From NCBI GenBank assembly GCA_045805285.1, contig JBJMLN010000135.1, positions 5,656-69,655 of the forward strand: 64,000 nucleotides of DNA, written 5' to 3'. This DNA is from Actinomycetota bacterium. GTDB taxonomy: Bacteria > Actinomycetota > UBA4738 > JBJMLN01. Shown piece by piece: positions 5,450-63,810 of this stretch. Numbering within the stretch: position 1 is the stretch's first letter; the number at the start of each line of letters is the position of its first letter. The position numbers and the translations under genes are program-made. A model generated the notes under the pieces. The model was not told the origin of the DNA. It searched no databases and worked only from the letters and a program-made list of their open reading frames with translations.

Positions 5450-5523
5450 GGGGGTGTAGCTCAGCCCGGTAGAGCGCTGCCCTCGCACGGCAGAAGTCAG
5501 GGGTTCAAATCCCCTCACCTCCA
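5450..5523 (+). tRNA. tRNA-Ala, anticodon CGC.
   Basis: Manual fold: acceptor GGGGGTG/CACCTCC with a G3:U70 wobble (the alanine identity element). D arm GCTC-AGCCCGGTA-GAGC. Anticodon stem CTGCC/GGCAG with loop CTCGCAC. T arm AGGGG-TTCAAAT-CCCCT. Discriminator A. CCA is not encoded. Confidence 0.85.
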
Positions 5524-8237: not shown

Positions 8238-8294
8238 GTTCGGGAAGTCCCAGCTGTCACCCTCCGGGAGGGGTGGGGGCATAGGGTTGAGGCG

Positions 8295-9149
8295 ATGACG
8301 CGCTTTCTGGTCCGCACCGTTTTCTCGGTCGCCGTGTCGATCTGCCTGGTCGTCCCCGCGGGCTGGAGCGTGACCGCTGCGGAGCGCTGCACGATCGACG
8401 GAACGTCCGGAGCGGACGTCCTTGTCGGGACCGACGGACGTGACGTCCTGTGCGGCCACGGCGGAGCGGATCTCCTCAAGGCTCGCGCGGGCGACGACCT
8501 TCTCCTCGGCGCCGACGGCCGAGACCGCTTGAACGGCGGCAATGGAAACGACCGCCTCCGGGGCGGCGCCGGAGCGGACAGCGCGGTCGGCGGAAAGGGC
8601 TCCGACCGCGTGGACGGTGGTGCCGGAGCGGACATATGTCTGTCCGCGTTCGACCACACCGTCGGCAACGATGTCATCGTCGGCGGTCCCGGTCGCGACT
8701 CGTACGTTGCGGACCACGGCGACGTCGCGAACGGAGCGAACGCCAGCCGGCCGTGCACGCTGCGAGCCAAGCTCGTCGGCGATCGCAAGGGTCCCTCCGG
8801 GTCGCTCGACGTGAATGGCAAGTCCTCCCCGGGTGCTGCCGAGAGTTGGTGCTGGCGCGAAAGCAGTCGCTCTTCCTACTGCGCCGACACCGGGATCGAC
8901 TTCTCGAACCTTCCGGCGTTCGACGTCCCGCGGGACGCCGCACTCTTCGTCCATGGCAACGCCGATTCGGCCGGAGCGGAGCTGTGGCGACCCACCGACG
9001 GCGTTTTCCCCAGCCACCGGATCGCGACGGTCGATCTGCGAGGCGGCTCGGATGCGCTGCGGGTCCCACCCGGCGCGTATCTCCTCCGCGTCAGCGGTCG
9101 TTGGAGCCGTGGCACCGCGGCGTACTGGTTCGAGCTCGACGTCGCCTGA
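8295..9149 (+). CDS. Secreted protein with an N-terminal signal peptide and six or more hemolysin-type (RTX) calcium-binding nonapeptide repeats (GGxGxDxL).
   Basis: MTRFLVRTVFSVAVSICLVVPAGWSVTAAE is a signal peptide. Repeats: GTDGRDVLCGHGGADLLKARAGDDLLLGADGRDRLNGGNGNDRLRGGAGADSAVGGKGSDRVDGGAGAD. Confidence 0.7.
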   Translation: MTRFLVRTVFSVAVSICLVVPAGWSVTAAERCTIDGTSGADVLVGTDGRDVLCGHGGADLLKARAGDDLLLGADGRDRLNGGNGNDRLRGGAGADSAVGGKGSDRVDGGAGADICLSAFDHTVGNDVIVGGPGRDSYVADHGDVANGANASRPCTLRAKLVGDRKGPSGSLDVNGKSSPGAAESWCWRESSRSSYCADTGIDFSNLPAFDVPRDAALFVHGNADSAGAELWRPTDGVFPSHRIATVDLRGGSDALRVPPGAYLLRVSGRWSRGTAAYWFELDVA

Positions 9150-23648: not shown

Positions 23649-24202
23649 ATCGCGTCAGGAGGCACATCGAGGTCCGGAGGCGCGTCGCGGTCGATCTTCA
23701 CGTCGTCGACCTCGTGAGGGCCGAAAAGAGCACGCGCGCCCGAGTCTCCCGTCAGCGCGAGCGCATCGGGCCAGATCTCTCTCGAGAGGAGCGCCGGACC
23801 GGGCGCGTTCCGGTACCGGAGTCGAACGATCGGTGCGCGGGTCTGGCTGAACCGCTCGACGAGCGCGCGGATCTCCTCCGGATCGACCCCGGGCTGGTCG
23901 GCGAGGAGGACGACAACCCCTTCGCTCGATGGATCGAGTGCTCGGAGGCCAGTCGCGAGCGACGTCGATTGGCCCTGCGCGAAGCGTTCGTTCACCACGA
24001 TGCGCGCGTTCGGGGGGAGCGTGATCGCCGCCTGAACCCGTTCAGCGTCGTGGCCGAGGACGACGACGATCTCGTCGAGTTCCGCCGCCGCAGCTGCGTC
24101 GATCGCGTGTTGGACGAGCGGCTTCCCTTCGAACTCGAAGAGCTGCTTCGTGGAACCGAAGCGTGACGCCGTCCCCGCCGCGAGGACGATCGCGGAGATC
24201 AA
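23645..24202 (-). CDS. mocA: MobA-like nucleotidyltransferase (molybdenum cofactor cytidylyltransferase MocA-like).
   Basis: LISAIVLAAGTASRFGSTKQL matches the GT-A NTP-transferase motif. TTG start with GAAGGA at -5. Forms a TTGA overlap with coxG. Confidence 0.7.
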   Translation of the reverse strand: MISAIVLAAGTASRFGSTKQLFEFEGKPLVQHAIDAAAAAELDEIVVVLGHDAERVQAAITLPPNARIVVNERFAQGQSTSLATGLRALDPSSEGVVVLLADQPGVDPEEIRALVERFSQTRAPIVRLRYRNAPGPALLSREIWPDALALTGDSGARALFGPHEVDDVKIDRDAPPDLDVPPDAI

Positions 24203-24816
24203 CGATCCTTCGCGTCGATCCCGAACAGCTTTCGGAACCAGCGCACGATCGACGACACCAGCGCCGAGAGGCCGAGCCGGAGGCCACCGACGGGAGCGGC
24301 CGCCTGTGGCGGAGCCGGTGCCAGCTCGGGCGACTCCTCCGTCCCCTCCGGAACCGCGGGTGTTGCCGCCTCCGCGGCCATGTTCGTCCGAAGGCAGCTG
24401 GCGAACTGCTGGGTCAGCTTTGCCGAGACGTCGGGCAGCAATCCTCGGGAGAGTTGCGCGACCGCTCCGGTCAGCGTGACGTCGGCCTGCATGCGGACCT
24501 TCGTCGAGTCTCCGTCCCGTTCCAACGTCGATGTGACCGTCGCGTTGGCGGCTCCCTTTCCGCGCTGCTCCATCCCAGACGCATGGAGGACCACACGGTG
24601 CGTCGCGTCGACGCGATCCTGCATCGTCACGGTCCCCGCGAATGCCAGCGCCACGGGCCCGAACTTCATCGTCACTCGGCCTTTCCAGTTGCGGTCGTCG
24701 ATCGTCTCCGTCAGCTGTGCGCCCGGCATGCACGGTGCGACCTTGTCGACGTCGAGGAGATACCGCCAGACGTCGTCGATCGGCGCGGGAACCTCGAACT
24801 CGTTCGTGATCTCCAT
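24199..24816 (-). CDS. coxG: CoxG-family SRPBCC protein (carbon monoxide dehydrogenase subunit G-like).
   Basis: MEITNEFEVPAPIDDVWRYLLDVDKVAPCMPGA is the classic CoxG N-terminus. Confidence 0.8.
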   Translation of the reverse strand: MEITNEFEVPAPIDDVWRYLLDVDKVAPCMPGAQLTETIDDRNWKGRVTMKFGPVALAFAGTVTMQDRVDATHRVVLHASGMEQRGKGAANATVTSTLERDGDSTKVRMQADVTLTGAVAQLSRGLLPDVSAKLTQQFASCLRTNMAAEAATPAVPEGTEESPELAPAPPQAAAPVGGLRLGLSALVSSIVRWFRKLFGIDAKDR

Positions 24817-24818
24817 GG

Positions 24819-25823
24819 TCAGCCTTCCCCGTGGATGGGCCCGCGGCGATCGCGGAGCGAACCTCCGCTGCGGCCCCGATCGACGGCGATGATCTCCGCG
24901 GTGATGGAGCTCGCGATCTCCCGTGGACCCTCCGCGCCGACGTCGAGCCCGGCGGGAGCGAACACGCGATCGAGGCCAGGATGCCCCTCGACCTCGACGA
25001 GGAGACGCTCTGTTCGTCCACGCGGTCCGAGCATGCCGATGTAGGGAACGGACGAGTCGAGCAGCGTGCGAAGTCGTTCGCCATCCGTCAGATAGGCGTG
25101 ATTCATCACGACCGCGAACGTCCGGTCGTCGAGAAGAACATCTGGAACCGGTTCCGACCGCGAGACGCACGCGACGTCCCATCCGAGCGCGCGACCGGCA
25201 TCGGCGAGCGCGGGGGCGTCGGATCGATCTCCGAAGAGCGCGAGCCGGATCGGCCGGCGGAGGAGCTCCACGAACGCCCGCGCACCGGTCGCGAACGAAA
25301 CGATCCGCGGCGCGCTCTGAGAAAGCGCCCGCTCCGCTGTGTCCGCGGCGTCCTCCGGCATCCAGCCGACCTGTGATGCGACGCCGTCCGCAGACAGCGC
25401 TAGGCGCGAGCCGGCGGAGTCGCCGTCCAGGAGCGTCACCAGCGCATGGTCGGAACGCTCACGAGCGACGGCCCGGACGTGATGAGCGAACGTGCGCGCG
25501 CTCGAGGACGGTTCCACGAACACCTCGATGACGCCCTGGCAGCCCATGCCGTAGCCGAGCTCCACCTCGTCGTCTGCGGTGAGATCGAACTCGCGGAGCA
25601 TCGGCATTCCACTCTCGGCGACGGCTCGAGCGTCGTCGACGAGCTCCGCCTCCAGGCAGCCGGGGCTGAGCGAGCCGATCGGATCTCCGCCAACGGGGAG
25701 CATCGCCCGCGCGCCGGGACGCCGGTACGAAGATCCACGGACGCCGACCACGGTCGCCAGCGCGAACGGTGCATCCCGTTCCACGAGAAGCTCGATTGCG
25801 GCGGCGATGTCGGGCGTTGCCAC
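24819..25823 (-). CDS. xdhC: XdhC/CoxI-family molybdoenzyme maturation factor.
   Basis: FALATVVGVRGSSYRRPGARM matches the XdhC_CoxI N-terminal domain, with a C-terminal Rossmann-like domain. GTG start selected by homology. Confidence 0.75.
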   Translation of the reverse strand: MATPDIAAAIELLVERDAPFALATVVGVRGSSYRRPGARAMLPVGGDPIGSLSPGCLEAELVDDARAVAESGMPMLREFDLTADDEVELGYGMGCQGVIEVFVEPSSSARTFAHHVRAVARERSDHALVTLLDGDSAGSRLALSADGVASQVGWMPEDAADTAERALSQSAPRIVSFATGARAFVELLRRPIRLALFGDRSDAPALADAGRALGWDVACVSRSEPVPDVLLDDRTFAVVMNHAYLTDGERLRTLLDSSVPYIGMLGPRGRTERLLVEVEGHPGLDRVFAPAGLDVGAEGPREIASSITAEIIAVDRGRSGGSLRDRRGPIHGEG

Positions 25824-25965
25824 GTTCGGATAGTAGCTATCTCCACCGCCCGCGACCGCCGCACGCTCGCGCTTTGAACGTGCTCGAACCTCCGTGTTAG
25901 AAAGGAGATTCCAGCGCCCGGGTCCCTTTTCCCGGCGCGCGCGTCCCCGTGGAAGGGGTGCTGCA

Positions 25966-26382
25966 ATGGCCTCGCTCAGCACGAAGGACATCAGCCTCGA
26001 TCAGGCGAACGCCGCAGTCGAGGCCGCAACGAAGAAGGCCGAGGAGATCGGCACGACGATGGACATCGCCATCGTCGACGCCGGCGCCAACCTCAAGGCG
26101 TTCGCGCGGATGGACGGCGCCTGGCTCGGCAGCATCGACATCGCGATCAAGAAGGCCAGCACCGCACGGTGGTTCGATATGAACACCGGCGACATCGGCG
26201 GCCTCTCCCAGCCGGGCGGCGCGCTGTACAACATCGAGCACTCGAATGAGGGCCTGATCACGTTCCCCGGCGGCATCCCGATCAAGGACGGCGACACGGT
26301 GATCGGCGCGATCGGCGTCTCGGGCTCGACCGTGGAGAACGACCACACCGTCGCGGCGGCCGGCGCAGCAGCCGTCCAGTAG
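25966..26382 (+). CDS. GlcG / HbpS-like heme-binding protein (DUF336).
   Basis: [43 protein letters not shown] and [20 protein letters not shown]. Confidence 0.75.
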
Positions 26383-27620: not shown

Positions 27621-28478
27621 TTAGGCCTGCGAGGAGGCGTTCGCGCGCGCGGACGCCTCCTCCAGCGCGCGTCGCACGAGGATCTCGGCCAGCGCTCTTC
27701 GGTACTCCGCGCTGCCCGAGATGTCGCTCGGCGGGCTGGTTCCCTCCGCCGCCGTGGTGGCCGCGGTTCCGGCGTCCGCGCCGTCCGAGAGCGCCTGTTC
27801 GACTCGTGTCGCGCGGATCGGCCGGTCGCCCATGTTCGTGAGGGCGACCCGGGCGGTTCCGTCAGCGTGCGTGAGGGCGGCGACGCCGACCAGCGCCCAG
27901 TCCGCAGCGCGGCGGTGGAACTTGATCGCGCTCCAACCCGTTCCCGGCCGGAGCTTCGGGACGCGGACCTCCGTCAGCATCTCCGTGGGGGAGAGTTCCG
28001 TCTCGAAGAGTCCGGTGAAGAACGTCGTCCCCGGCTGCGTCCGCGTGCTTCCGTCCACGCCGCGGATCCTCAGCTCCGCGTCGAGCGCGACGACGGCCGC
28101 GGGGAGATCCGACGCCGGGTCCGCATGCGAGAGCGAGCCGCCGATCGTTCCGCGATGCCGGACCTGGGGGTCGCCGATGTCCGCCGCGACGGCTTGCAGG
28201 AGCGGACACCAGCGTTCGAGAAGGTCGCTTCGCTCGAGGTCCGCGTGACGCGTGAGCGCGCCGATCGCGATCACGTCGTCCTCCTCGCGGATGTAGCGGA
28301 GCTCGTCGAGACGCCCGATGTCGACGAGAAGAGCAGGCTGCGCAAGCCGGAGCTTCATCAGCGGCAGAAGCGAGTGACCTCCCGCGAGGAGCTTTGCCTC
28401 GTCTCCTCGGTCGGCCAGGATGCCGAGCGCGTCGTCGATCGTCGCCGCGCGCTCGTACTCGAACGCCGCCGGGATCAC
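27621..28478 (-). CDS. coxM: FAD-binding molybdopterin dehydrogenase subunit (CoxM/XdhB family).
   Basis: [18 protein letters not shown] start region, [16 protein letters not shown], and the CO dehydrogenase flavoprotein C-terminal domain. GTGA overlap with coxS. Confidence 0.8.
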
Positions 28479-28954
28479 GTCGAACGCTCCGCGCCGGCGG
28501 CGTCGAGCACTGCGCGGACGATGTTGTGGTAGCCCGTGCAGCGGCAGAGGTTTCCCTCGAGACCGCGCCGGACGTCCTCCTCGGTGGGCGAAGGGTTGTC
28601 CTTCAGGAGGGCGACCGAGGCCATCACCATGCCGGGCGTGCAGAACCCGCATTGAAGCGCGTGGTTGTTCCGGAAGGCCGCCTGAACGGGGTGCATCTCT
28701 TCGAGCTCCGCGCCGGCTGCGAGGCCTTCGATCGTCGTGATCTCCGTCCCGTCCGCTTGGACGGCGAGCACGGTGCAAGACTTCACCGACTCTCCGTCGA
28801 TGAGGACCGTGCACGCACCGCAGGACGTCGTGTCGCACCCGACGTTCGTTCCCGTGAGAGCGAGCGTCTCCCGCAGGAAGGAGACGAGGAGCGTGCGCGG
28901 CTCCACCTCCGCCTCGCGGACCGAATCGTTGACGGTGACGCGGACCGACCGCAC
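28475..28954 (-). CDS. coxS: (2Fe-2S)-binding small subunit (CoxS/XdhC family).
   Basis: [11 protein letters not shown] and [11 protein letters not shown] cysteine clusters. Confidence 0.9.
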
Positions 28955-30217: not shown

Positions 30218-30568
30218 TCAGACAACGTGTCCGGGTGCGCCATCGGGCGTTGTTAGGGGGAGGCCGTCTCGCTCCCAGGCCTCGAGGCCTCCCTCGAGGT
30301 TATGCGCGTCGTAGCCCCGGGCCTGGAGCATGATCGCTGCAAGCTCGCTGCGGTTGCCGACGCGGCAGACGACGACGACGGGGCGTTCTCGGTCGAGATC
30401 GTCGTCGCCCGCGCCTCCCATCACGTCGTTCAACGGCAGGTGCACCGAACCGTCGATGCGGCCGGCATCCCATTCGTACGGCTCGCGAACGTCCACGATC
30501 TGGACGTCGGAGAGGTGGGTCGAGAGACCTTTCGGCTGGCTGAGCTCGTCGATCATCGGTTTCGGCAT
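30218..30568 (-). CDS. Rhodanese-domain sulfurtransferase (single domain).
   Basis: DVREPYEWDAGRIDGSVHLP and the active-site loop CRVGNRS. Confidence 0.75.
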   Translation of the reverse strand: MPKPMIDELSQPKGLSTHLSDVQIVDVREPYEWDAGRIDGSVHLPLNDVMGGAGDDDLDRERPVVVVCRVGNRSELAAIMLQARGYDAHNLEGGLEAWERDGLPLTTPDGAPGHVV

Positions 30569-30606
30569 CCTAGCAGCAGGTTTGCGGCCGCCGGATCCGC
30601 GGTTTG

Positions 30607-31128
30607 TCACGGGCCCGCAGCCTCGAGCGCCTCCGCGAAGACGTCGTGGGCACGCCGGTCGAACAGCACGAAACGCACCTCGTCCAGCGACGACGGCGCG
30701 TCGCGAACGGCATCTAGCGCCACGGGGGCGGCGAGCTCCAGCGGATAGCCGTAGATCCCCGTGGAGATCGCCGGGAACGCGACGGTCCGCGCGCCGAGTT
30801 CCTCCGCAACGCGGAGCGATTCCCGGTGGCAGCTCGCGAGCTTGACCGCGTCGTCCTCGGAGCCGGAGTACACCGGGCCGACCGTGTGGATCACCCACCG
30901 CGCGGGAAGATCGCCCGCGGTCGTCGCGACGGCCTGTCCCGTCGGAAGACCTTGCGGAAAGCGCTCCGCCCGAACACGCTTGCACTCCTGCAGGATGGCC
31001 GGGCCGCCGGCTCGGTGGATCGCGCCGTCGACGCCTCCGCCGCCCATCAGGGAGCCGTTCGCGGCGTTCACGATCGCGTCGACGTCCTGCGTCGTGATGT
31101 CTCCGACGACGACGGCGATGCGGGCCAC
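30607..31128 (-). CDS. Macro-domain protein (O-acetyl-ADP-ribose deacetylase, YmdB/Af1521-like).
   Basis: [39 protein letters not shown] is the canonical macrodomain motif. Confidence 0.85.
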
Positions 31129-31151
31129 AGCGTTATCGTAGCGGCGAGCCG

Positions 31152-32093
31152 ATGCCCGACTTCGACGTCCTCGTCCTCGGCGACTGCAACCCGGACCTGA
31201 TCCTTTCCGGGGGAGACGTCGAGCCCGCGTTCGGGCAGGTGGAGAAGCTCGTCGAACGAGCGAGCCTCGCGGTCGGCGGGTCCGGAGCGATCTTCGCGTG
31301 CGGAGCCGCGCGTCTCGGGCTGAAGACGGCCTTTGCCTCCGTCGTCGGTGACGACGTCTTCGGCCGGTTCATGCTCGACGCTCTGCGAGAGCGAGGAGTC
31401 GACACGCGCGGAGTGCTCGTCGACCCCCACCGGCCGACCGGCGTGACGGTGGTTTTGTCCAAGCCGTCGGACCGGGCGATGATCACCGCTCCCGGAACGA
31501 TCGGCGACATGCGGAGCGGTCTCGTCGATCCCGAGCTCGTCCGCAGCGCCCGTCACGTACACGTGAGCTCCTACTACCTCCAGCGCGGGCTGCACGAGGG
31601 CCTCCGGGACGTCTTCGCGGAGGCTCACGCCGCGGACGCGACGACCTCGCTCGACCCCAACTGGGATCCGCGCGGGGAGTGGAACTCCGGCCTGCTCGGC
31701 CTCCTCGGAGAGACGGACTGGTTCCTCCCGAACTCCGCAGAGGCGAGACAGATCACGGGCGTCGACGACATCGAGATCGCGGCGACGGCCCTCGCGGAGA
31801 ACGGCTGCACGCTCGCGGTGAAGCTCGGCGCCGGCGGAGGGTTGGCCGCGCGCGGAAGCGAGGTCGTCCAGGTTTCCGCCTACAAGGTCCGGGTGGAAGA
31901 CACGACGGGCGCAGGGGACAGCTTCGACGCGGGCCTCGTTGCCGCCGTCCTCGCCGGAGAGTCGCTGCGGCGCGCGCTCGAGGTCGCGATCGTCTGCGGC
32001 TCGCTCTCCACGCGGGCGCGTGGTGGCGTGGACGCGCAGCCGACGATGGAGGAGGTGCGCGCGGCGCTCGAGTCGTTCCGCGCCGCGTCGTGA
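31152..32093 (+). CDS. PfkB-family carbohydrate kinase.
   Basis: N-terminal GG motif ([18 protein letters not shown]) and C-terminal DTTGAGDSF. Confidence 0.8.
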
Positions 32094-49411: not shown

Positions 49412-49865
49412 CGCGTTCTCCTGAACGATCGTCCGGGCGGTGGAGTCTAGTCGGGCGAGTCTCGACGTCGCCCGCGTGGGTTCATCCGTCCACCTGTGTC
49501 TCAAGCATCCGGGAGGCAACGTCGATGCTCTCCGTGTCTCTCTCACGGGCTGATGAGGAGAGCGGCGAGATGGTGGGTTCCGGCGCGTTGATCATCGGAG
49601 GACTCCTCCCGCTGCTTCCTGCGAGCGGCTTTCTCTTCGGCGCGGAGGTGACGATCGTTCCGGTGCGAGACCCTGAGAGGCGTGCGCGCATACAGCGGGC
49701 CTCGTCTGTTGCGGGACGGGTCATTCTGGCCCTGGCTGTCCTACTTCTCTTGGTTGGCGGAGTCGGCCTCATCGTGACCGCCGTGATGTGACTGCGCAGG
49801 ACTGCGAGCCCGAACGATAACGCTCCACGCGAAGCCCGGTGACGCTGGTCGCCATCCCGGCGAAA

Positions 49866-50630
49866 ATGCTCGACGTGGAAGAGGTGGAGGTCGTCGTCGC
49901 CCATCGCGAGCGGGTGACCCTGCGCGTCGGCGACGTCTTCCTGAAGATCGACACTGACCAGGCGCGCACGGACCGCGAGGTCGAGGCGATGGGCCTTGCG
50001 CCGATCCCGACTCCGGAGGTCCTCTGGCGGAAGCCGCCCGTGCTCGCACTCTCGGCCCTCCGCGGAACGGCACTCGGCCGCCTCGGTGAGCGCTCGAACG
50101 CGTCCGCGGAGGCTTGGGCCGCTGCCGGCGCCGCCGCACGGATGTTGCACGATGCGCCGCTTCCGCCATGGCCAGGCGAAAGCATCGACGAGATCGCATC
50201 GCAACTCGAGAGGGAATGCGACTGGCTCGTCACGAACGATGTCCTTCCGACCGAGATGGTCACGCGCAACCGCCGGATCGCTGAGACCGCGCTCCAACCG
50301 TGGACGCCAGTATTTGCGCACGGCGACCTGCAGATCACCCACGTGTTCGCCGACGGTGACGAGATCACCGGAGTTATCGACTGGTCAGAAGCGGCCCAAG
50401 GCGATGCCCTCTACGACCTCGCCACGTTGACGCTCGGACACGAGGAGCGCCTTGCCGACGTTGTCGCCGGCTACGGCACCGACGTCGACCTCGACGTCAT
50501 CCGGGCGTGGTGGTCGCTTCGAAGCCTGCTTGCGGCGCGCTGGCTGATCGACCACGGCTTCGATCCGTCCTCGCCAGGTTGCGAGTTCGACGTGTTGAGA
50601 TCTTCGTCAAGCTGGACGACTGAAGCCTGA
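49866..50630 (+). CDS. Aminoglycoside / antibiotic phosphotransferase (APH) family protein.
   Basis: HGDLQITHVF (Brenner HGD) and GVIDWSEAAQGDALYDLA (D-x-x-E). Confidence 0.75.
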   Translation: MLDVEEVEVVVAHRERVTLRVGDVFLKIDTDQARTDREVEAMGLAPIPTPEVLWRKPPVLALSALRGTALGRLGERSNASAEAWAAAGAAARMLHDAPLPPWPGESIDEIASQLERECDWLVTNDVLPTEMVTRNRRIAETALQPWTPVFAHGDLQITHVFADGDEITGVIDWSEAAQGDALYDLATLTLGHEERLADVVAGYGTDVDLDVIRAWWSLRSLLAARWLIDHGFDPSSPGCEFDVLRSSSSWTTEA

Positions 50631-50632
50631 CC

Positions 50633-51022
50633 TCACGACCAGAACTCGTCCGACGTGTAGGCGTCGCTCGGGTGCAGCCACGACTCGGTGACCTTGCCGT
50701 CCTTGAGGTGGAAGACCTGGACGGTGTTGTCGTGCAGCGTCTTTCCGTTCCGCTCGCCCATCGCGGTGAGGAGCGTCACGGCGTGCTCGTCGTCGGCCAG
50801 GATCGCGTGGATGTCGAGGTGGAACGTCCCGTTCGTCAGCTCCATGTTCTTCTGGAGGTTGCCGAACACCTCGTCCTTGCCCCGGAACGTTCCCGAGAGC
50901 TCGTTGCGTCCGGGGGTGTGCCAGACGACGTCGTCGGAGAAGAACTCGTTCAGCGTTGCCATGTCGCCGGCTGCGAACGCGTCGTAGCCCTTGCGGACGA
51001 GATCCTCGTTGGGATGAGCCAT
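50633..51022 (-). CDS. SnoaL/NTF2-like fold protein.
   Basis: LVRKGYDAFAAGDMATLNEFFSDDVVWHTPG is a typical SnoaL_2 N-terminus. Confidence 0.7.
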   Translation of the reverse strand: MAHPNEDLVRKGYDAFAAGDMATLNEFFSDDVVWHTPGRNELSGTFRGKDEVFGNLQKNMELTNGTFHLDIHAILADDEHAVTLLTAMGERNGKTLHDNTVQVFHLKDGKVTESWLHPSDAYTSDEFWS

Positions 51023-51128
51023 GGTTCCTCCTGACGGTGGCTGGAGTGGCGGGACCGCCATCCTGGGGCCCGACACCTCGCTCGTCAAACGGAGTCACCA
51101 GTCCACGGAGCGGACCTAGAGTGAACCC

Positions 51129-51966: not shown

Positions 51967-52473
51967 ATGGCAGCCGTCCTCGATTACCTCCAGGGCCGCG
52001 GCGTCACGTTCCAGGTCATCCCGCATGCTTCGGCGTCCTCTGCGGAGGAGGCTGCCACGCTGATCGGCGTCGATCCCGCGGAGATGGCGAACACCGTCGC
52101 GATGATCGAGGGCCTCGACGTCTCCTTGGCCGTGATCCCGGCGAGCGACCGGCTCGACCCACGCGCGGTCGCCGCGGCGATTGGTGATCGAGCCCGGCCC
52201 GCCGACCCCGACGAGATCCGGCACGCGTTCCCCGACATCCAACCGCGCGCCCTTCCTCCGCTCGGTTTGCTGCTGCACGTGCCGATGTACGTCGACCCGG
52301 CGCTGTACGAGCGGGAGACGATCGTGTTCCCGGCCGGGAGGAGCACGCAATCGATCCGCATCCGCACCGAGGACCTGTTCCGTGGAGATCCCATCGTGGT
52401 GACGCCGCTGACCCGCAGGGAACCGGATCAGGTCGTGAAGGTGGAGGAGGCCGTGGAGATCCTCGACCAGTAG
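51967..52473 (+). CDS. YbaK / ProX-family aminoacyl-tRNA deacylase domain protein.
   Basis: VLDYLQGRGVTFQVIPH N-terminus and overall size fit the family. Confidence 0.7.
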   Translation: MAAVLDYLQGRGVTFQVIPHASASSAEEAATLIGVDPAEMANTVAMIEGLDVSLAVIPASDRLDPRAVAAAIGDRARPADPDEIRHAFPDIQPRALPPLGLLLHVPMYVDPALYERETIVFPAGRSTQSIRIRTEDLFRGDPIVVTPLTRREPDQVVKVEEAVEILDQ

Positions 52474-52995
52474 CTACTGGAGCTTTCGGGGGATCGAGCG
52501 CTCCCAGCTCCGCGACCATTTCGGCTCATCGTTCTCGAGCGCGTCGAGCTCCATCTTGAGGTGGTACGTCGATGCGTCGCTCCGGAGCGTCAGCCGCGCC
52601 TCCGTCTTGACGTGCACGTCTCCGTATCGGATGTCGAACGACCCCAGCCCGACCGCGCCGGCGTCGCCGGGATCCTCGGTGGAGACGTCGATCGTTCCCG
52701 CGTAGCGCTCGTGCACGATCGTTCCCGGTCTCGCCTCCGCCGGCTCTCCGCCGTGATCGATCGTCGTGGAGGTCCGATTGCCCATCACGTCGTGGTCGAC
52801 TCGCCAGACGATGCCCTTGCGCGCCTGCGGGTCGGTGTCGGAGCTCGCCGTCGGTCCCTCTCCCATCTCCAGGGTCCGCTCCAACACCGGAGCGAGCTGC
52901 GGCTTCTCCGAAACGGGCGTCGGGCCGTTCAGCACCGGCAGCACGAGCGTCGCGTCTCGGCGCCGGAAAGAGATCCCCGCGGGCGTCGGGGGGGC
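52474..52995 (-). other. Downstream-frame continuation (~150 aa) of the CocE/NonD gene. Codon bias switches from the upstream frame to this frame exactly at a C8 run on the minus strand (G8 on the plus strand, 52988-52995).
   Basis: This frame shows high GC3 from the homopolymer onward: ...PPTPAGISF...GIVWRVDHDVMGN...HLKMELDALENDEPKW. Adding one C yields a single ~650-aa reading frame. Confidence 0.5.
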
Positions 52996-54482
52996 CACGC
53001 GTTCGGCCAGTCCGCTCCGGAGAGATCGAGCCGCACGCGGTGGCCCTTCTCGAAGATCCACGACGTCGCTTCGAGCTCCAGCGTCACGCGATACTCGGCG
53101 CCGGGCTCGAGCGGCGACGGATCCGTGCGCGACTCCCGCTGCGTGAGGTTCAACAGCCCGCGGGTCACGAGCGCGCTCGTTCCGTCCTCGAAGACGTCGC
53201 AGAGCTTCGCGTTCAGGTACGTCACGGGAACCGACGAGCGAAGCGTGATCTCCACGCGTGGATGGCCGAGGATGTCGAGCTCCTCGTCCAAAGGCCCCCA
53301 GTCGTAGACGAGCGAGTACGCCTCGTCCTCGCGCTGGTCGATCGGCTGCCCGAACGGGAGATGTCCGGCGCAGGAGATCCACGCCGTCCACCCGACGTCG
53401 CCGCGAACCTTCAGAGCGTCGAAGCCGTCACGCGCGACGACGTCGGAGTGCGCCTCCGACAACGCGTACGGCGTCTCCCTCATGCGCTCCAGGGGCCATC
53501 CCGGCTCGAACCGCCACTCGCCGCGCATCTCCTCGAGGTCGGCCTTCGGACGAGTGGAGCGTCGCGCGAACAGCACGATCGGCGGCTCCTCGTCGATGCC
53601 GTTGCGATCGTCCCTCAGCCAGCGGTCCCACCAGCGCACCATCTCCGGAACGAGGTCGATGTGCGGACCCGGCAGCGACGTGGCGGGAGACGCGTGCGCC
53701 CACGGGCCGAACAGCAGCCGCTTCGGACACTGCAACCGCTCCATCGTCCGGAAGGAGTTGTTGCGGTACCCGTCGGCCCAGCCGGCGACGATCATCGTGG
53801 CGGCCCAGATGCTCCCGTAGTCGGTGTTGAGCGACCCGTGGTCCCAGTACTCGCCTTTGGTCTGCTCCTCCAGCCAGGTGATCAGCCACGGTTCGTTGCC
53901 CTCGAACCGTTCCCGCCAGCGCTCTCGCCAGTTCTCGCCGGCGAGCGCGGGGACGGGCGGCAGCGCGTTCATCGCGAGCATGTACGTCGGATAGTCGATC
54001 GTGTCGAGCGCCTTGAAGGCGCCGCCGAAGTAGTGGACGTCGTCCATGTAGCGGTCATCCGTCGCGAAGATCGGGATGATCGCCTTCAGCGCCGGCGGCT
54101 GCTCCATCGCCACCTGGATCGAGTTGAAGCCCGAGTACGACGTTCCGAACATCCCGACGTTGCCCGTGGACCACTCCTGGGAGGCCAGCCACTCGATGAC
54201 CTGCACCATGTCCTTCTGCTCTTCCACCGGGTACTCGTCGGTCGCGAGCCCCTCCGAGGAGCCGGTGCCGCGGACGTCGACGCGCGCGACGGCGTAGCCG
54301 AACTCCTCCGCAAGGCGTTCGTACTCGCTCCGGTAGCTCGCGGTGACGTCGTCCTTCCGGTAGGGGAGCGCCTCCAACAGCGCGGGCCACGGGCCTTCGC
54401 GCTCGGGGAGATAGAGCGACGCCGCGAGCCGGACCCCGTCTCGCATCTCGATGAAGACGTCGGATTCGGACAAACCGACCAT
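52929..54482 (-). CDS. CocE/NonD (S15, Xaa-Pro dipeptidyl-peptidase-like) alpha/beta hydrolase, upstream reading frame of 517 aa. It is interrupted near its 3' end by a frameshift.
   Basis: GTSYSGF nucleophile elbow, MRDGVRLAASLYLP, and the C-terminal GHRVRLDLSGADWPNAWP (the CocE SSSNFP-region analogue). Confidence 0.8.
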   Translation of the reverse strand: MVGLSESDVFIEMRDGVRLAASLYLPEREGPWPALLEALPYRKDDVTASYRSEYERLAEEFGYAVARVDVRGTGSSEGLATDEYPVEEQKDMVQVIEWLASQEWSTGNVGMFGTSYSGFNSIQVAMEQPPALKAIIPIFATDDRYMDDVHYFGGAFKALDTIDYPTYMLAMNALPPVPALAGENWRERWRERFEGNEPWLITWLEEQTKGEYWDHGSLNTDYGSIWAATMIVAGWADGYRNNSFRTMERLQCPKRLLFGPWAHASPATSLPGPHIDLVPEMVRWWDRWLRDDRNGIDEEPPIVLFARRSTRPKADLEEMRGEWRFEPGWPLERMRETPYALSEAHSDVVARDGFDALKVRGDVGWTAWISCAGHLPFGQPIDQREDEAYSLVYDWGPLDEELDILGHPRVEITLRSSVPVTYLNAKLCDVFEDGTSALVTRGLLNLTQRESRTDPSPLEPGAEYRVTLELEATSWIFEKGHRVRLDLSGADWPNAWPPRRPRGSLSGAETRRSCCRC

Positions 54483-54521
54483 GGGCAGACGAATCCTACC
54501 TTCACACGGAATGCCCGCAGG

Positions 54522-56072
54522 TCATATCCACGAGCCGAACCACTGGCGCGCCTGCCACGCCTTCTCCGAGAGCGGAACCGCCGCGAGGACCGGATAGAAG
54601 AAGACGAACGCGGCCAGCGCGACGAGGACGAACGCGACGGTGACGGGGAGGTACGGCCTCGCCCGAGATCCCGCCAGATGGACGGTCGCGAGGTCTCGAG
54701 CCATGTACGTCAGCGCGAGGACGAAGAACGGAACGATCGGCAGCACGTAGAAGAAGAACTGCGGCCGCGAGACGAGGAACCACGGAAGGTACTGTCCGAC
54801 GGCGGCGACGATCACGAATCCCGCGACCCAGTCACGCCTCCTCCGCCATTGGAGCGCGACGTAGGGGAGCGCGATCAGGCTCCCCCAAAAGATCGCGGGG
54901 TTGCCGAGGTCGGTGACCTCCGTTCCGGGGCCGGCGAAGTAGTACACGACCGGCCGGCCCACGAAGATCCATTTCCACGCGGGGGAGAGGTACGGGTGGA
55001 TCGGCTGATGCGTCTTCGGATCGATCCCCTGCAGATGGAAATGGAACGACGCCATCGACTCCTGCAGGTTCCAGAAGTGCCCGAGGTCGAACCCGTTCTG
55101 CACCCAGAAGCGCGCGTACGCGACGAGGTAGACCGCGATCGGAACGAGCACCATCCACAGAACGATGCCGAAGCTCTCCTGTTGGATCGCCGCCCAGAGC
55201 GGCCGGCGCGTGCGTCCTTTCCGGCGCGTGCGTTCCCAGATGATCGAGATGAGTCCGGCGGCGAGGATCGCGTTGACGCCGGACCACTTCGTCGCGATCG
55301 CGCAGCCGAACGCCAGTCCGGCCGCGAGCCTCCACGGCCGGAAGATCGGTGACGGCGGGGGCTCCTGAGGAGGCTCCGTCTCGTCGGTGATCGTCGCCGT
55401 CGCGATCGCTCCGTCGGCCTCGAGCGCTCCCTGCGGTTCCGGCGCGACGGAGCTCGGCGCGGCGAAACCGCTCGCGACGTCCGCGGAGACGGGTTCGGAC
55501 GTTCCGAGGTGTCGCGTTCCCTCTTCCGGCGGCGGCCCCGATCGTCGCTCGATCCACCTTCGGTCGAGCAGGAGGAACACGAACGCGAGCAGGATCCACG
55601 TCGTGAGGAAGATGTCGAGCATCGCGGTGCGCGACTGCACGAAGTCGAGTCCCTCGACGGCGAGCAGCAGTCCGGCGACGGACGTCCAGAGCGGTTTCCT
55701 GAAAAGCAGCTGCGCGACGACCGCTGTCAACGCGACCCCTGCGGTTCCTGCCACGGCCGCGGCGAAGCGCCATCCGAACGGTGTGTTGCCGAACGCCATC
55801 ACGCCGAGCGCGACGGCCCACTTTCCGAGCTGCGGGTGCTCCCACGAGCTCTCGCCCCAGACGCCGACCCAGTACTTCTCCGTGTCGCCGTGGATGCCGC
55901 ACTCCGACGGCGGATAGCCCGCGTACATGCAGCCGTCCTTGGAATAGAAATGCTCGTCGAAGATCCGCTCGGCCGGCGTGGAGAGGTGATACAGCCGCAG
56001 GCCTCCCGCGATCGCGGTGACGGCGACGATCGCGACGACGGGGCGGTCGAGCCGGCGAAGGAACTCGTACAT
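54522..56072 (-). CDS. pmt: Protein O-mannosyltransferase (PMT / GT39 family).
   Basis: N-terminal DE motif (IFDEHFY) and multiple transmembrane segments. Sits in conserved synteny with rsmI. Confidence 0.85.
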   Translation of the reverse strand: MYEFLRRLDRPVVAIVAVTAIAGGLRLYHLSTPAERIFDEHFYSKDGCMYAGYPPSECGIHGDTEKYWVGVWGESSWEHPQLGKWAVALGVMAFGNTPFGWRFAAAVAGTAGVALTAVVAQLLFRKPLWTSVAGLLLAVEGLDFVQSRTAMLDIFLTTWILLAFVFLLLDRRWIERRSGPPPEEGTRHLGTSEPVSADVASGFAAPSSVAPEPQGALEADGAIATATITDETEPPQEPPPSPIFRPWRLAAGLAFGCAIATKWSGVNAILAAGLISIIWERTRRKGRTRRPLWAAIQQESFGIVLWMVLVPIAVYLVAYARFWVQNGFDLGHFWNLQESMASFHFHLQGIDPKTHQPIHPYLSPAWKWIFVGRPVVYYFAGPGTEVTDLGNPAIFWGSLIALPYVALQWRRRRDWVAGFVIVAAVGQYLPWFLVSRPQFFFYVLPIVPFFVLALTYMARDLATVHLAGSRARPYLPVTVAFVLVALAAFVFFYPVLAAVPLSEKAWQARQWFGSWI

Positions 56073-56596: not shown

Positions 56597-57424
56597 ATGG
56601 CCGGAACGCTGCACCTCGTCGGAACGCCGATCGGGAACCTCGGCGACATCAGCCAACGCGCGAAGGAGACGCTCGCGCGCGTCGACGTCGTCGCCGCGGA
56701 GGACACCCGCCGTGCCCGGAAGCTCCTGTCCCATCTCCGCGTCCGAGCGGAGCTCACCACGCTCTTCGAGGGCAACGAGCGTTCGCGAACGGAGACGCTG
56801 CTCGACGCGCTCCGCGCGGGGCGCGACGTCGCCGTGATCTCCGATGCGGGGATGCCGGGACTTTCCGATCCGGGGTACCGACTGGTCCGCGCGTGCGCGG
56901 GCGAGGGGATCGAGGTGCGCGTCGTCCCCGGTCCGTCCGCGGCGATCGCGGCGCTCGTCGTGTCCGGGCTCCCGTCCGACCGCTTCGTCTTCGAGGGCTT
57001 CCTTCCGAAGAAGGAGGGAGAGCGGAGCGCCCGCCTGGAGGCGCTCGCCACCGAACGGAGGACGATCGTGCTGTTCGAATCTCCACGGCGCGTGTCCGCT
57101 ACGCTCGACGCGATCGCGTCGGCCCTCGGGCCGGAGCGGCCGGTGGCGGTCGCCCGGGAGCTCACCAAGGTGCACGAGGAAGTGCTCCGCGGAAACGCCT
57201 CGGAGCTGGCGGAGAACCTCCGCGACCAGGAGCTGCGTGGCGAGGTCGTCCTCGTCGTCGGGGGGGCGACGCGAGGCCCGGCCCCGGAGCTCTCGGAGCT
57301 CGTCGATGAGGCGGCGGAGCTGACCCGCGCCGGCAGTAAGAAGCGCGAGGCCGCCGCCGAGATCGCGCGCCGGCATCACGTCTCTGCCAACTCGATCTAT
57401 CGGGCGCTGCTCGAGGAGCGCTGA
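56597..57424 (+). CDS. rsmI: 16S rRNA (cytidine1402-2'-O)-methyltransferase.
   Basis: LHLVGTPIGNLGDISQRAKETLARVDVVAAEDTRRARKLL. Confidence 0.9.
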   Translation: MAGTLHLVGTPIGNLGDISQRAKETLARVDVVAAEDTRRARKLLSHLRVRAELTTLFEGNERSRTETLLDALRAGRDVAVISDAGMPGLSDPGYRLVRACAGEGIEVRVVPGPSAAIAALVVSGLPSDRFVFEGFLPKKEGERSARLEALATERRTIVLFESPRRVSATLDAIASALGPERPVAVARELTKVHEEVLRGNASELAENLRDQELRGEVVLVVGGATRGPAPELSELVDEAAELTRAGSKKREAAAEIARRHHVSANSIYRALLEER

Positions 57425-60862: not shown

Positions 60863-62011
60863 TTGGCGGTATCAGCCATGCGGGTGCGCAGACTGCGCGT
60901 CCGGCGCGCGATCGCGCGCGCCTCGCTCGCCGGCATGCTTCTCGCCGCGGGCGTCCTCTACATCGCGCTTCAGAAGAACGTCACCTTGGTGGTCGACGGG
61001 CAGGCTCGCCCCGTCGCCACCTTCGACTCCAACGTGGGGGAGCTCCTCCACGGCATCTCGCTTGAGCCCGGAGACCACGTCATGCCCTCGCCGTCGACGT
61101 CGCTGTCGGACGGCATGGTCGTCGTGGTCTCCCGCGAGACGCCGGCCGCCGCGGCGGCATCGAGCTCTCCGACCGGTGGGGTCTGGGCGGTGGGGGGGGT
61201 GAGCGGGGCGCTCCGCGAGGAGCTCCTTGCTCCAGCCGAGACCGCGCTCTCCGCGGACGCGTCCACTGGGCCGTCCACGATCGTCGAGGAACGAGTCGTC
61301 GTGATGGGGAAGGTTCGCGACGTGCTCACCAACGCCTCGACGGTCGGGACACTCCTCTCGGCCATGGGGATCGAGCCCGACGGCCGCGACCGCGTCCTCC
61401 CATCGCCCAGCACCCCGCTCTCCAAGGCGGCGACGGTTCGCTACGTCGACGTCGACCAGCGCACCCGGAAGGTGACCTCCCCGATCCCGTTCACCACGTA
61501 CACGACGTACTCCTCGTCGATGGCTCCGGGATCCGTCCACGTCGTCCGCGACGGCAAGCCCGGTCGCTTCGAGCGGACGTACCGCGTGCGGACGATCGAC
61601 GGCAAGGTCGTCAGGAAGCATCAGATCGACCAGCACGTCGTCGAGACTCCGGTCGCTGAGCACCGCGTCGTCGGAGGAACCGAACCGTCCGCGCCGGCGC
61701 CGGTATCGCCGCCGGAGTCCTCGCAGCCCGCCCCCGAGGAGCCGAGCGGAACCGCGAGCGGCGACGGCGTGGAGGTCGGTGACGCCTCCTGGTACAGCTT
61801 CGCGCCGGGCTCGGGCTTCACGGCGGCGCATCCGTGGCTTCCGTTCGGGACGCACGTGACCGTCACGAATCTCACGAACGGTCGGAGCGTCACCGTGGTA
61901 ATCAACGACCGTGGACCGTTCGGCGGGCGAAGCATCGACCTCTCCGAGGAGGCGTTCGCCCAGATCGCGCCGCTCAGCCAGGGCGTCGCGCACGTCCGCC
62001 TCACCTGGTAG
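60863..62011 (+). CDS. RpfB/YabE-like cell-wall protein. It has an N-terminal transmembrane segment, DUF348 repeats, a G5 domain, and a C-terminal RlpA-like / 3D double-psi beta-barrel in place of an Rpf lysozyme-like domain.
   Basis: [23 protein letters not shown] (DUF348) and the C-terminal [58 protein letters not shown] (DPBB). Confidence 0.75.
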
Positions 62012-62846
62012 CGGCGGCGTCGGCCGGCTCGGCGCTCGGTCTCTCCGCGAGCTGGCGGAGCGCCATGGAATCTCCCCGAAGGCGGCCCTCGGTCAGCACT
62101 TCCTGATCGATCCGAACCTCGCCGATGCGATCGCCGCTGCCTCAGGGGCGGCTCCCGGGGTCAGCGTCGTGGAGATCGGAGCCGGTCTCGGCTCGCTGAC
62201 CCGCGCGCTCGCGGAACGGCGAGCGTCCGTCCTCGCGCTGGAGTTCGACCGTGCGCTGATCCCGGCGTTGACGGAGGCGGTCGGAGACCTCCCGGATGTC
62301 GCGATCCGTCAGGCGGACGCGACGTCGCTGGCATGGCAGTCGCTGCTCGGGAATGCGAGCTGGCGATGCGCGGCCAACCTTCCGTACAACGTCGGGGTGC
62401 CGATCCTGCTGCGGGCGCTGGAGGAGGCGCCCGCGATCGAGGAGTACGTGGTGATGGTGCAGCGAGAGGTCGCGGAGAGGTTGGTGGCCGGCCCCGGGGA
62501 CGACTCGTACGGAACGACGTCGCTCCGCGTCGCGTACCGAGCCGATGCGGAGATCCTCCGAACCGTTCCGCCGTCGGTGTTCTGGCCGCGGCCACACGTC
62601 GGCTCGGCGGTGGTGCGGCTGAAGCCGCATCCGCCCCGTGTGGCGACGGATCCCGGCGTGCTGTTCCGCGTGATCGACGTCTCCTTCGCCGAGCGACGCA
62701 AGACGATGCGGAGCGCGGCGCGGCGACTCGCCGTTCCAGCGGATCGCGTCGCCGACACGCTTCGCTCCGCGGAGATCGATCCGGACGCGCGGGCGGAGTC
62801 CCTGTCGCTCGATCGCTTCGCCGCGCTCGCGGAGGCGTTGGAGTGA
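61911..62846 (+). CDS. rsmA: 16S rRNA (adenine1518/1519-N6)-dimethyltransferase. The only in-frame canonical start is the ATG at 61911, which overlaps the upstream gene by 101 nt. The conserved region begins at ~62040.
   Basis: [30 protein letters not shown]. Confidence 0.8.
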
Positions 62847-63751
62847 GCGCCGTGACGCGGCGGGCGTACGGAAAGATCAACGTGTTCCTGCGCGTCGTCG
62901 GCAAGCGGCGCGACGGCTATCACGAGATCGAGAGCCTCGTCGTTCCGATCTCCCTCGCCGATCGCGTTTCGGCTCGTCTCGCACCGGCGCTCCGCCTGAA
63001 CGTCTCGGGCAACACGACGACGGGAGTTCCGCAGGGGCCGGCGAACCTCGCGTTGCTGGCCGCGTTGGCTCTCGCGGAGGCATGCGAGCCGTCGGAGGGC
63101 GCGGAGATCTCGATCACGAAGCACGTCCCGGCGGCGGGCGGTCTCGGCGGAGGGAGCTCCGACGCCGCCGCGGTTCTCCACGCGCTGAGCGAACTGTGGG
63201 AGTGCGAGCTGCGCCCTTCCGCTCTCTCGCGGATCGGAGCGGCGCTCGGCTCGGACGTCCCTGCTGCCCTGCGCGCGGCGCCAGTGGTGATGCGGGGGCG
63301 AGGGGAGACGCTTCGCCCAGCCAAGATCGGAGGCACGCAGTGGTGGACGCTCGTCCCGTTCGATTTCCCCGTCCGGTCCCCGGACGCGTACCGGTGGTGG
63401 GACGAGGACCGTGAGCGGAGCGGGCCATCTCCGACTGCGTTACTCCGCGCCGCCGCCGCCGGAAAGCTCCGGCGCCTCGGAGAGCTGCTGTTCAACGATC
63501 TCGAGGGCCCCGTCCTCCGGCGCCATCCGGAGGTCGCAGAGGTGAAGGAGCGCCTCCTGTCCGCGGGCGCCCTCGGGGCGGTCATGAGCGGAAGCGGCCC
63601 GACCGTCGTCGGTCTCGCGGAGGACCGATCGCACGCCCAGCGCCTCGCGCGGAGGTTCGAGGGAGCGAAGGTCGTCTCAGCGCCTCCCGACCGAATGACG
63701 GGCGTCGCCCTACCCGCGCGGGATAATCGAAAGCGGTCCGGGGTCGTCTAA
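62843..63751 (+). CDS. ispE: 4-(cytidine 5'-diphospho)-2-C-methyl-D-erythritol kinase.
   Basis: YGKINVFLRVVGKRRDGYHEIESL and the GHMP motif PAAGGLGGGSSDAAA. GTGA overlap with rsmA. Confidence 0.9.
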   Translation: MSAVTRRAYGKINVFLRVVGKRRDGYHEIESLVVPISLADRVSARLAPALRLNVSGNTTTGVPQGPANLALLAALALAEACEPSEGAEISITKHVPAAGGLGGGSSDAAAVLHALSELWECELRPSALSRIGAALGSDVPAALRAAPVVMRGRGETLRPAKIGGTQWWTLVPFDFPVRSPDAYRWWDEDRERSGPSPTALLRAAAAGKLRRLGELLFNDLEGPVLRRHPEVAEVKERLLSAGALGAVMSGSGPTVVGLAEDRSHAQRLARRFEGAKVVSAPPDRMTGVALPARDNRKRSGVV

Positions 63752-63810
63752 CGGCAAGACGGGGGCCTTTGGAGCCTCAGATGGAGGTTCGATCCCTCCC
63801 CCCGGAGCCA
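63737..63810 (+). tRNA. tRNA-Gln, anticodon TTG, with encoded CCA.
   Basis: Manual fold: acceptor TCCGGGG/CCCCGGA. Anticodon stem GGGGC/GCCTC with loop CTTTGGA. T arm GGAGG-TTCGATC-CCTCC. Discriminator G followed by CCA. Confidence 0.85.

What the first reader, a model, noticed from the sequence alone, without database searches (positions are those of the whole stretch)
52474..54482. CocE/NonD hydrolase split by a frameshift at a G8/C8 homopolymer
The 517-aa minus-strand frame carries the full alpha/beta-hydrolase core and most of the C-terminal beta-sandwich. It terminates 19 codons after a C8 run (plus-strand G8 at 52988-52995). From exactly that run onward, the strong GC3 codon bias continues in the adjacent reading frame for another ~150 codons, to 52474. 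Inserting one C fuses both into a ~650-aa protein: ...GADWPNAWPPPTPAGISF...HLKMELDALENDEPKW. This is either a homopolymer sequencing error, a genuine recent pseudogene, or a slippage-prone phase-variable or programmed-frameshift site.
Basis: seen in the sequence. Interest (0 to 1): 0.5.

Follow-up and report, generated by a model that had tools for sequence, protein, structure and literature searches.

The report
One-base frameshift in a hydrolase gene
An ordinary CocE/NonD-type serine hydrolase gene is broken in this assembly by one missing C in a run of Cs; this is most likely a sequencing miscall or a very recent mutation, not a programmed device.

Summary
The core observation holds, with two corrections. 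The run is G7 on the + strand (C7 on the coding strand) at 52988-52994, not G8. The repaired protein is 669 aa, not about 650.

The 517-aa minus-strand ORF (52929-54482) stops 19 codons after the run. The -1 frame then stays open to 52474. Adding one C gives a protein with Peptidase_S15 and PepX_C domains (TIGR00976 CocE_NonD, 267 bits) and an extra conserved C-terminal beta domain.

More than 100 orthologues are single ORFs of 643-679 aa that cover both halves. Of 162 related loci, 160 are unbroken. None of 135 surveyed has a C run longer than 6 at this site. The nearest relative reads CCT CCG CCG (Pro-Pro-Pro).

The downstream piece shows the same purifying selection as intact orthologues (dN/dS 0.11-0.21). 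It folds confidently (pLDDT 93). There is no canonical slippery heptamer in phase, no unusual downstream RNA structure and no conservation of the site.

Verdict: a non-programmed single-base loss in a lineage-specific poly-C tract. The sequence alone cannot separate a consensus miscall (about 0.5) from a very young real deletion (about 0.4). Low interest.

The parts
52929..54482 (-). Upstream ORF as it stands in the assembly: 517 aa. ATG at 54482-54480. Residues 1-498 are homologous to CocE/NonD hydrolases. They are followed by 19 out-of-frame codons and TGA.
   Evidence: ORF list. Pfam Peptidase_S15 at 15-264 and PepX_C from 294. TIGR00976 at 266.9 bits.
54138..54140 (-). Codon of Ser115, the putative nucleophile in GTSYSG. 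It aligns with CocE Ser117.
   Evidence: phmmer alignment to 1JU3. Invariant in 98 orthologues. Codon read.
53772..53774 (-). Codon of Asp237 (GWADGY). It aligns with CocE Asp259.
53694..53696 (-). Codon of His263 (GPWAH). It aligns with CocE His287.
52988..52994 (-). C7 homopolymer on the coding strand (G7 on +). This is the site of the one-base deficit. Relatives have 8 bases here, encoding Pro/Ser-Pro-Pro.
   Evidence: Regex scan. DNA alignments with L001, L002, L003 and L009 show a single uncompensated 1-nt gap here.
52929..52931 (-). Premature TGA stop, reached in the shifted frame.
52474..52986 (-). Continuation of the gene in the -1 frame: TPAGISF...RKLQ, 170 codons plus TAG. It contains the last two strands of the PepX_C beta-sandwich, a linker and the C-terminal domain.
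   Evidence: Translation. Homology across the junction. dN/dS of 0.11-0.21.
52477..52836 (-). Conserved C-terminal domain of about 110 aa: eight long antiparallel beta strands. It has no Pfam family. It lies entirely downstream of the frameshift.

Best explanation
The locus encodes an ordinary cytoplasmic-type CocE/NonD (peptidase S15) serine hydrolase of 669 aa. It has an alpha/beta-hydrolase domain with a Ser115-Asp237-His263 triad, a PepX_C beta-sandwich and a family-specific C-terminal beta domain.

In this lineage, synonymous changes turned the Pro-Pro-Pro codons after the conserved DWPNAW motif into a pure C run. The inferred intact state is CCC CCC CCG, that is C8. The assembly shows C7, one base short. 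Translation therefore leaves the frame at residue 498 and stops 19 codons later.

I take this as a non-programmed single-base length error of the tract. My nominal favourite cause (about 0.5) is an under-call of the homopolymer in the consensus sequence, in which case the organism has an intact gene. A genuine, very recent slipped-strand deletion is almost as likely (about 0.4; see rivals).

Shown: the lesion, its position, the homology of both halves, the absence of the tract and of the break in relatives, and unrelaxed selection downstream.

Inferred: the C8 ancestral state and the cause of the missing base.
For: - There is a single uncompensated 1-nt gap, located exactly in the run, against four relatives at 85-90% nt identity.
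- The repaired protein is matched end to end by more than 100 single-ORF orthologues of 643-679 aa.
- 160 of 162 related loci are unbroken.
- Downstream dN/dS of 0.11-0.21 equals that among intact orthologues over the same codons, 0.16-0.20. There is no second lesion in 172 codons.
- The window's downstream frame folds with pLDDT 93.4.
- The only two other broken copies (L070, L075) are both in Nanopore-only 'MFD' MAGs. That is 2 of 27 MFD loci against 0 of 135 others.
- Of related contigs of 64 kb or more, 26 of 28 are from that Nanopore-only set (PMC12313526). This makes a long-read origin of a 64-kb window plausible.
- Nanopore consensus indels concentrate in homopolymers and cause false frameshifts. 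Read-level accuracy drops at lengths 8-9, 'especially with cytosines', and bins below 40x need polishing (PMC9262707).
Against: - The sequencing platform and coverage of this window are unknown.
- No other frame break was found anywhere in the 64 kb by a GC3 frame scan.
- The other two long runs (G7 at 57260-57266, G8 at 61192-61199) sit in continuous ORFs, so the assembly is not generally indel-ridden.
- On the window's own branch the downstream part has 5 nonsynonymous and 7 synonymous codon changes, against 8 and 36 upstream. This hints at relaxation but is not significant (Fisher p = 0.12).
- Young frameshift pseudogenes are common enough in real genomes that one in about 60 genes is unremarkable (own knowledge).
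Confidence: 0.5

Rival explanations
1. Genuine, very recent slipped-strand deletion (C8 to C7, or loss of the interrupting base in CCCCCGCC). This would make the gene a young pseudogene. The 517-aa product keeps the catalytic triad. It lacks the last two sandwich strands and the whole C-terminal domain, so it is probably unstable.
For: - Homopolymers of 7 or more are mutational hot spots for indels in Actinomycetota (M. tuberculosis: PMC10334774; 10.1101/717272 and PMC6667613).
- The rest of the window shows no other frame breaks, including at a G8 and another G7. This argues against a generally error-prone consensus.
- There is a slight excess of nonsynonymous changes downstream on the window branch: 5:7 against 8:36.
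Against: - That excess is not significant (p = 0.12).
- Pairwise dN/dS downstream is the same as in intact orthologues.
- There is no second lesion.
- The gene is retained intact in 160 of 162 related assemblies, which implies selection to keep it.
Confidence: 0.4
2. Adaptive, reversible phase variation. The C7/C8 tract would act as a contingency switch that turns the hydrolase off and on in the population, like the 7C tract of M. tuberculosis glpK.
For: The tract length of 7 or more meets the usual operational definition (PMC10334774). One-step reversion restores a fully conserved protein. No decay has accumulated.
Against: - The tract is not conserved. None of 135 orthologous sites has a C run longer than 6, and the closest relatives read CCTCCGCCG or TCCCCTCCG.
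- The tract lies 74% of the way into the gene, in a housekeeping-type cytoplasmic enzyme, not in a surface or uptake function.
- No population data are available: no same-species sequence was found in any collection.
Confidence: 0.05
3. Programmed recoding. A -1 ribosomal frameshift on the C run, or transcriptional slippage adding a C, would make the full-length protein from the C7 template.
For: A -1 slip of tRNA-Pro on CCC CCC, or on CCC before the fairly rare CGA (7% of Arg codons), would give W-P-P-P-T. This is exactly the orthologue sequence.
Against: - In the zero frame the heptamer is G CCC CCC, not X XXY YYZ.
- The 121 nt from the run onward fold no better than shuffles: z = +0.48, with 139 of 200 shuffles at least as stable.
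- The site is absent from all relatives, which encode the protein in one frame.
- The well-known shiftiness of CCC-C is +1 (own knowledge). The +1 frame is not the homologous one.
Confidence: 0.03
4. Two separate functional genes: a naturally shorter hydrolase followed by an independent downstream ORF.
For: The listed 305-aa ORF (52474-53391) has a GTG start.
Against: - That GTG lies about 130 codons upstream of the junction, in a stretch without coding signal in that frame. The coding signal in that frame starts only at about 52956.
- The break falls inside the PepX_C sandwich, between strands.
- No orthologue is split here.
- The stop at 52474 abuts the convergent YbaK-like gene, exactly as in the intact orthologue locus L001.
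Confidence: 0.01

Closest known systems
Rhodococcus cocaine esterase CocE (PDB 1JU3, 3I2J and others); CocE/NonD family, TIGR00976 / MEROPS S15
   Same: - Same three-part core: alpha/beta hydrolase, helical insert and jelly-roll beta domain.
- phmmer E = 7e-46, with the alignment reaching the end of CocE across the frameshift.
- Foldseek of the orthologue model gives E = 6e-39, TM (target) 0.75 and 25% identity.
- The Ser/Asp/His triad residues align and are invariant.
   Different: - It has about 130 extra C-terminal residues: a linker plus an 8-stranded beta domain with no Pfam family. CocE lacks these.
- The substrate is unknown.
- The copy in this window is frame-broken.
Homopolymer indel errors in long-read (Nanopore) consensus assemblies
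   Same: A single-base under-call in a G/C run of about 8 produces a false split gene. The only other broken orthologues are in Nanopore-only MAGs (PMC9262707).
   Different: - The platform of this window is not known.
- No other indel is seen in 64 kb.
- L070 and L075 break at sites without long homopolymers.
Reversible homopolymeric-tract frameshifts in Mycobacterium tuberculosis (glpK 7C tract)
   Same: Both involve an actinobacterial high-GC genome and a poly-C tract of 7-8 inside a coding sequence, where a 1-nt length change switches the gene off (10.1101/717272, PMC6667613, PMC10334774).
   Different: There is no evidence here of length polymorphism, of tract conservation or of any selective advantage. 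The tract is unique to this lineage.

Membership tests
CocE/NonD family hydrolase (TIGR00976; Pfam Peptidase_S15 + PepX_C) | Whole-protein score above the curated cut-offs of the family models | tested here: met
   TIGR00976 scores 266.9 bits (cut-off 66.3). PF02129 scores 212.3 (cut-off 23). PF08530 scores 112.3 (cut-off 22.5). All on the repaired protein.
CocE/NonD family hydrolase (TIGR00976; Pfam Peptidase_S15 + PepX_C) | Ser-Asp-His catalytic triad at the positions of CocE Ser117, Asp259 and His287 | tested here: met
   S115, D237 and H263 align with those CocE residues in the phmmer alignment. They are invariant in 98 orthologues. The CocE triad numbering is from my own knowledge of the 1JU3 paper.
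CocE/NonD family hydrolase (TIGR00976; Pfam Peptidase_S15 + PepX_C) | Overall fold: alpha/beta hydrolase plus C-terminal jelly-roll | tested here: met
   The AF2 model of orthologue P0001 (91% identical) has pLDDT 90.5. The best PDB matches are CocE structures, with E about 1e-38 and TM 0.75.
CocE/NonD family hydrolase (TIGR00976; Pfam Peptidase_S15 + PepX_C) | Esterase or peptidase activity | not testable with these tools
   No biochemical data exist. The substrate is unknown.
Programmed -1 ribosomal frameshift site | Slippery heptamer X XXY YYZ in the zero frame | tested here: not met
   The zero-frame codons are TGG CCC CCC CGA, so the heptamer is G CCC CCC. P-site re-pairing would be imperfect.
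Programmed -1 ribosomal frameshift site | Stimulatory RNA structure a few nucleotides downstream | tested here: not met
   MFE is -52.2 kcal/mol against a shuffle mean of -53.9, giving z = +0.48.
Programmed -1 ribosomal frameshift site | Conservation of the shift site and two-frame organisation among orthologues | tested here: not met
   Of 162 related loci, 160 are single-frame. No C run longer than 6 occurs at this site in 135 loci. The nearest relatives read CCTCCGCCG or TCCCCTCCG.
Phase-variable (contingency) locus by homopolymer slippage | Homopolymeric tract of 7 or more inside, or just upstream of, the coding sequence | tested here: met
   C7 at 52988-52994.
Phase-variable (contingency) locus by homopolymer slippage | Tract-length polymorphism within the population or between strains | not testable with these tools
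   No reads are available. No same-species sequence was found: exact-protein look-ups and DNA pattern scans were empty, and the closest loci are 90-95% identical at the protein level.
Degraded pseudogene | Relaxed selection (dN/dS approaching 1) or multiple disabling lesions | tested here: not met
   There is one lesion only. Downstream dN/dS is 0.11-0.21, the same as in intact pairs. If the lesion is real, it is very young.

The most novel reading that the evidence does not exclude
The C7/C8 tract is a real, reversible slipped-strand switch in an uncultured soil actinobacterium. It would toggle a conserved CocE/NonD hydrolase off and on, in analogy to the glpK 7C tract of M. tuberculosis. Low-level -1 slippage on the run might supply residual full-length enzyme.
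Probability: 0.05. Interest if true: 0.35.

Novelty: already known. Interest (0 to 1): 0.1.

Why it matters
It matters mainly for annotation. The two ORFs should be merged and annotated as one CocE/NonD family hydrolase, frameshifted at 52988-52994, and flagged for read-level verification. They should not be called as a truncated enzyme plus a hypothetical protein.

If the missing base is real, it is one more example of homopolymer-driven gene inactivation in a high-GC actinobacterium. Nothing about the locus points to new biology. The only mildly new item is the uncharacterised C-terminal beta domain, which is conserved across this orthologue group.

Tried and rejected
- Exact-sequence look-ups of the 517-aa ORF and both neighbouring proteins found nothing on record.
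- DNA pattern scans across the site, allowing C6-C9, gave zero matches in genome contigs and metagenome contigs.
- Protein-guided scans of both collections found no relative closer than 95% or 90% aa identity. The C7-versus-C8 question therefore could not be settled from independent assemblies of the same species.
- A GC3/GC2 frame scan of the whole window looked for other split genes. The suspicious same-strand neighbours turned out to be ordinary adjacent genes. These were at 27621-28954, 24199-26000, 30218-31368 and 61902-63751.
- The branch-specific substitution test for relaxed constraint was underpowered.
- The RNA fold downstream of the run showed nothing unusual.
- The afdb50 fold library was unavailable.
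- I considered the +1 shiftiness of CCC-C and rejected it, because the +1 frame is not the homologous one.

Full report
**Observation**

The minus strand of 52300-54700 was read directly and the ORFs were listed. A 517-aa ORF runs from ATG at 54482 to TGA at 52931-52929.

A regex scan shows that the homopolymer is G7 on the + strand at 52988-52994, which is C7 on the coding strand. The window holds only three runs of 7 or more: this one, G7 at 57260-57266 and G8 at 61192-61199.

After the run, the zero frame reads RRPRGSLSGAETRRSCCRC and stops (19 codons). The -1 frame is open down to TAG at 52476-52474. A position-specific GC scan gives GC3 of 0.92 for 53022-54461 and 0.89 for 52522-52956 in the shifted frame. 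The run length (7, not 8) and the protein length (669, not about 650) need correcting.

**What the gene is**

The repaired protein matches:
- Pfam Peptidase_S15 (residues 15-264, 212 bits);
- Pfam PepX_C (294-503, 112 bits), running past the junction at residue 498;
- NCBIfam TIGR00976 CocE_NonD at 267 bits, against a cut-off of 66;
- NF003780, which extends to residue 526.

Against solved structures the best hit is Rhodococcus cocaine esterase (1JU3, E = 7e-46). The second aligned stretch runs from query 198 to 539 and reaches the end of CocE, again across the junction. In that alignment S115, D237 and H263 sit opposite CocE S117, D259 and H287. All three are invariant in 98 orthologues.

An AlphaFold2 model of the 91%-identical orthologue P0001 is confident (pLDDT 90.5, pTM 0.92). 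Its best PDB matches are CocE structures (E about 1e-38, TM 0.75). In that model the junction lies between sandwich strands 483-489 and 503-507. The truncated product would therefore lose two strands of the jelly-roll, a linker and a C-terminal domain.

**Orthologues**

The best 120 are nearly all single proteins of 643-679 aa that cover 96-100% of the query. The one exception is a 539-aa protein from a 1.8-kb contig. The top three are 90-91% identical and 670 aa long. They align through the junction without a gap...DWPNAW(P/S)PPTPA....

Gene order is conserved. In L001 the intact gene sits between a PMT-family glycosyltransferase and a convergent YbaK/tRNA_edit gene, followed by an Rce1-like gene. 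The window has the same neighbours. The window gene's TAG at 52474 abuts the YbaK-like gene's end at 52473.

DNA alignments with four relatives give a single uncompensated 1-nt gap in the gene, exactly in the run. The four are:
- L003, an Actinomycetota MAG (95% aa, 90% nt identity);
- L001 and L002 (about 88% nt);
- L009 (85% nt).

The relatives read TGG CCT CCG CCG ACG (L003), TGG TCC CCT CCG ACG (L001, L009) or TGG TCC CCT CCC ACG (L002). The window reads TGG CCCCCCC G ACG. Among 135 related loci where the DWPNAW motif could be located, none has a C run longer than 6 at this site. Of 162 related loci, 160 encode the protein in a single frame. The tract and the break are therefore peculiar to this sequence.

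**Age of the lesion**

Nei-Gojobori dN/dS between the repaired window gene and its relatives is 0.08-0.14 upstream of the junction and 0.11-0.21 downstream. Intact relatives compared with each other over the same downstream codons give 0.16-0.20.

On the window's own branch, polarised with L001 and L002, there are 36 synonymous and 8 nonsynonymous codon changes upstream, and 7 and 5 downstream. The L003 branch has 44 and 8 upstream, 10 and 2 downstream. The window's downstream excess is not significant (Fisher p = 0.12). There is no second lesion in 172 codons. Hence the break is very recent, or not real, or bypassed.

**Programmed recoding**

A -1 slip would indeed recreate W-P-P-P-T. But several points argue against recoding:
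- The zero-frame heptamer is G CCC CCC rather than X XXY YYZ.
- The following codon, CGA, is only moderately rare (7% of Arg codons).
- The 121 nt from the run onward fold no better than shuffled sequence (z = +0.48).
- The site is not conserved in any relative.

The known +1 shiftiness of CCC-C (own knowledge) leads into the non-homologous frame. I put recoding at about 3%.

**Error or real mutation**

No independent copy of this species could be found:
- Exact look-ups of three window proteins were empty.
- DNA patterns across the site, allowing 6-9 bases, matched nothing.
- The closest loci in both collections are 90-95% identical at the protein level.

Indirect evidence points both ways.

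*For an artefact:*
- The only other frame-broken copies among the 162 loci are L070 and L075. Both come from the Nanopore-only, Medaka-polished Microflora Danica MAG set (PMC12313526). That is 2 of 27 such loci against 0 of 135 others.
- Among related contigs long enough to supply a 64-kb window, 26 of 28 come from that set.
- Nanopore consensus indels concentrate in homopolymers. Read accuracy dips at lengths 8-9, especially for cytosines, and bins below about 40x need polishing (PMC9262707).

*For a real mutation:*
- The rest of the window shows no frame break.
- The other two long runs, including a G8, are read in frame.
- Homopolymers of 7 or more are genuine indel hot spots in Actinomycetota (10.1101/717272, PMC6667613, PMC10334774).

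I estimate about 0.5 for an artefact and about 0.4 for a genuine young deletion. About 0.05 goes to the stronger claim of adaptive phase variation.

**Verdict**

This is an ordinary CocE/NonD-family hydrolase gene interrupted by one missing base in a lineage-specific poly-C tract. The evidence removes the interesting alternative (a programmed or conserved slippery site) and leaves the two mundane ones. Read-level inspection at 52988-52994 would settle which applies. Interest is low.

Noticed in passing
window 52477-52836 (-); also residues 555-669 of orthologues P0001-P0120: This orthologue group of CocE/NonD hydrolases is seen in many Actinomycetota MAGs and its members are 643-679 aa long. 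It carries a conserved C-terminal domain of about 110 aa with no Pfam family. The domain is confidently predicted as eight long antiparallel strands. PDB comparison gives only generic beta-meander matches.
   Followed up: partly
L070 5480-5640 and L075 5540-5660: Two orthologues also change reading frame in the C-terminal third, at sites without long homopolymers. They are from the Nanopore-only Microflora Danica MAGs MFD10007.bin.2.82 and MFD09779.bin.1.329. These are possibly consensus indels in those assemblies.
   Followed up: partly
window 49454-51110: Relative to the syntenic contig L001, the window has about 1.6 kb extra between the Rce1-like gene and the DAO oxidoreductase gene. The extra DNA carries a SnoaL_2-domain gene (50633-51094, -) and an APH-family phosphotransferase gene (49821-50630, +). 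L009 shares the SnoaL-like gene.
   Followed up: partly
window 57260-57266 and 61192-61199: These are the only other homopolymers of 7 or more in the window (G7 and G8). Both lie inside ORFs with an uninterrupted coding signal. The first is also colinear with the L001 orthologue.
   Followed up: yes
window 52473/52474: The hydrolase gene and the convergent YbaK/tRNA_edit-domain gene (51967-52473, +) end back to back with no intergenic base. The same tight arrangement, with 3 nt between the genes, is seen in L001.
   Followed up: no
window 5450-5525 and 63737-63810: tRNA-Ala(CGC) and tRNA-Gln(TTG) genes, both on the + strand.
   Followed up: no
window 8237-8815: This stretch of about 580 bases had no clear coding signal on either strand in the GC3 scan. 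It lies between a molybdopterin-oxidoreductase-like ORF and a luciferase-like ORF.
   Followed up: no
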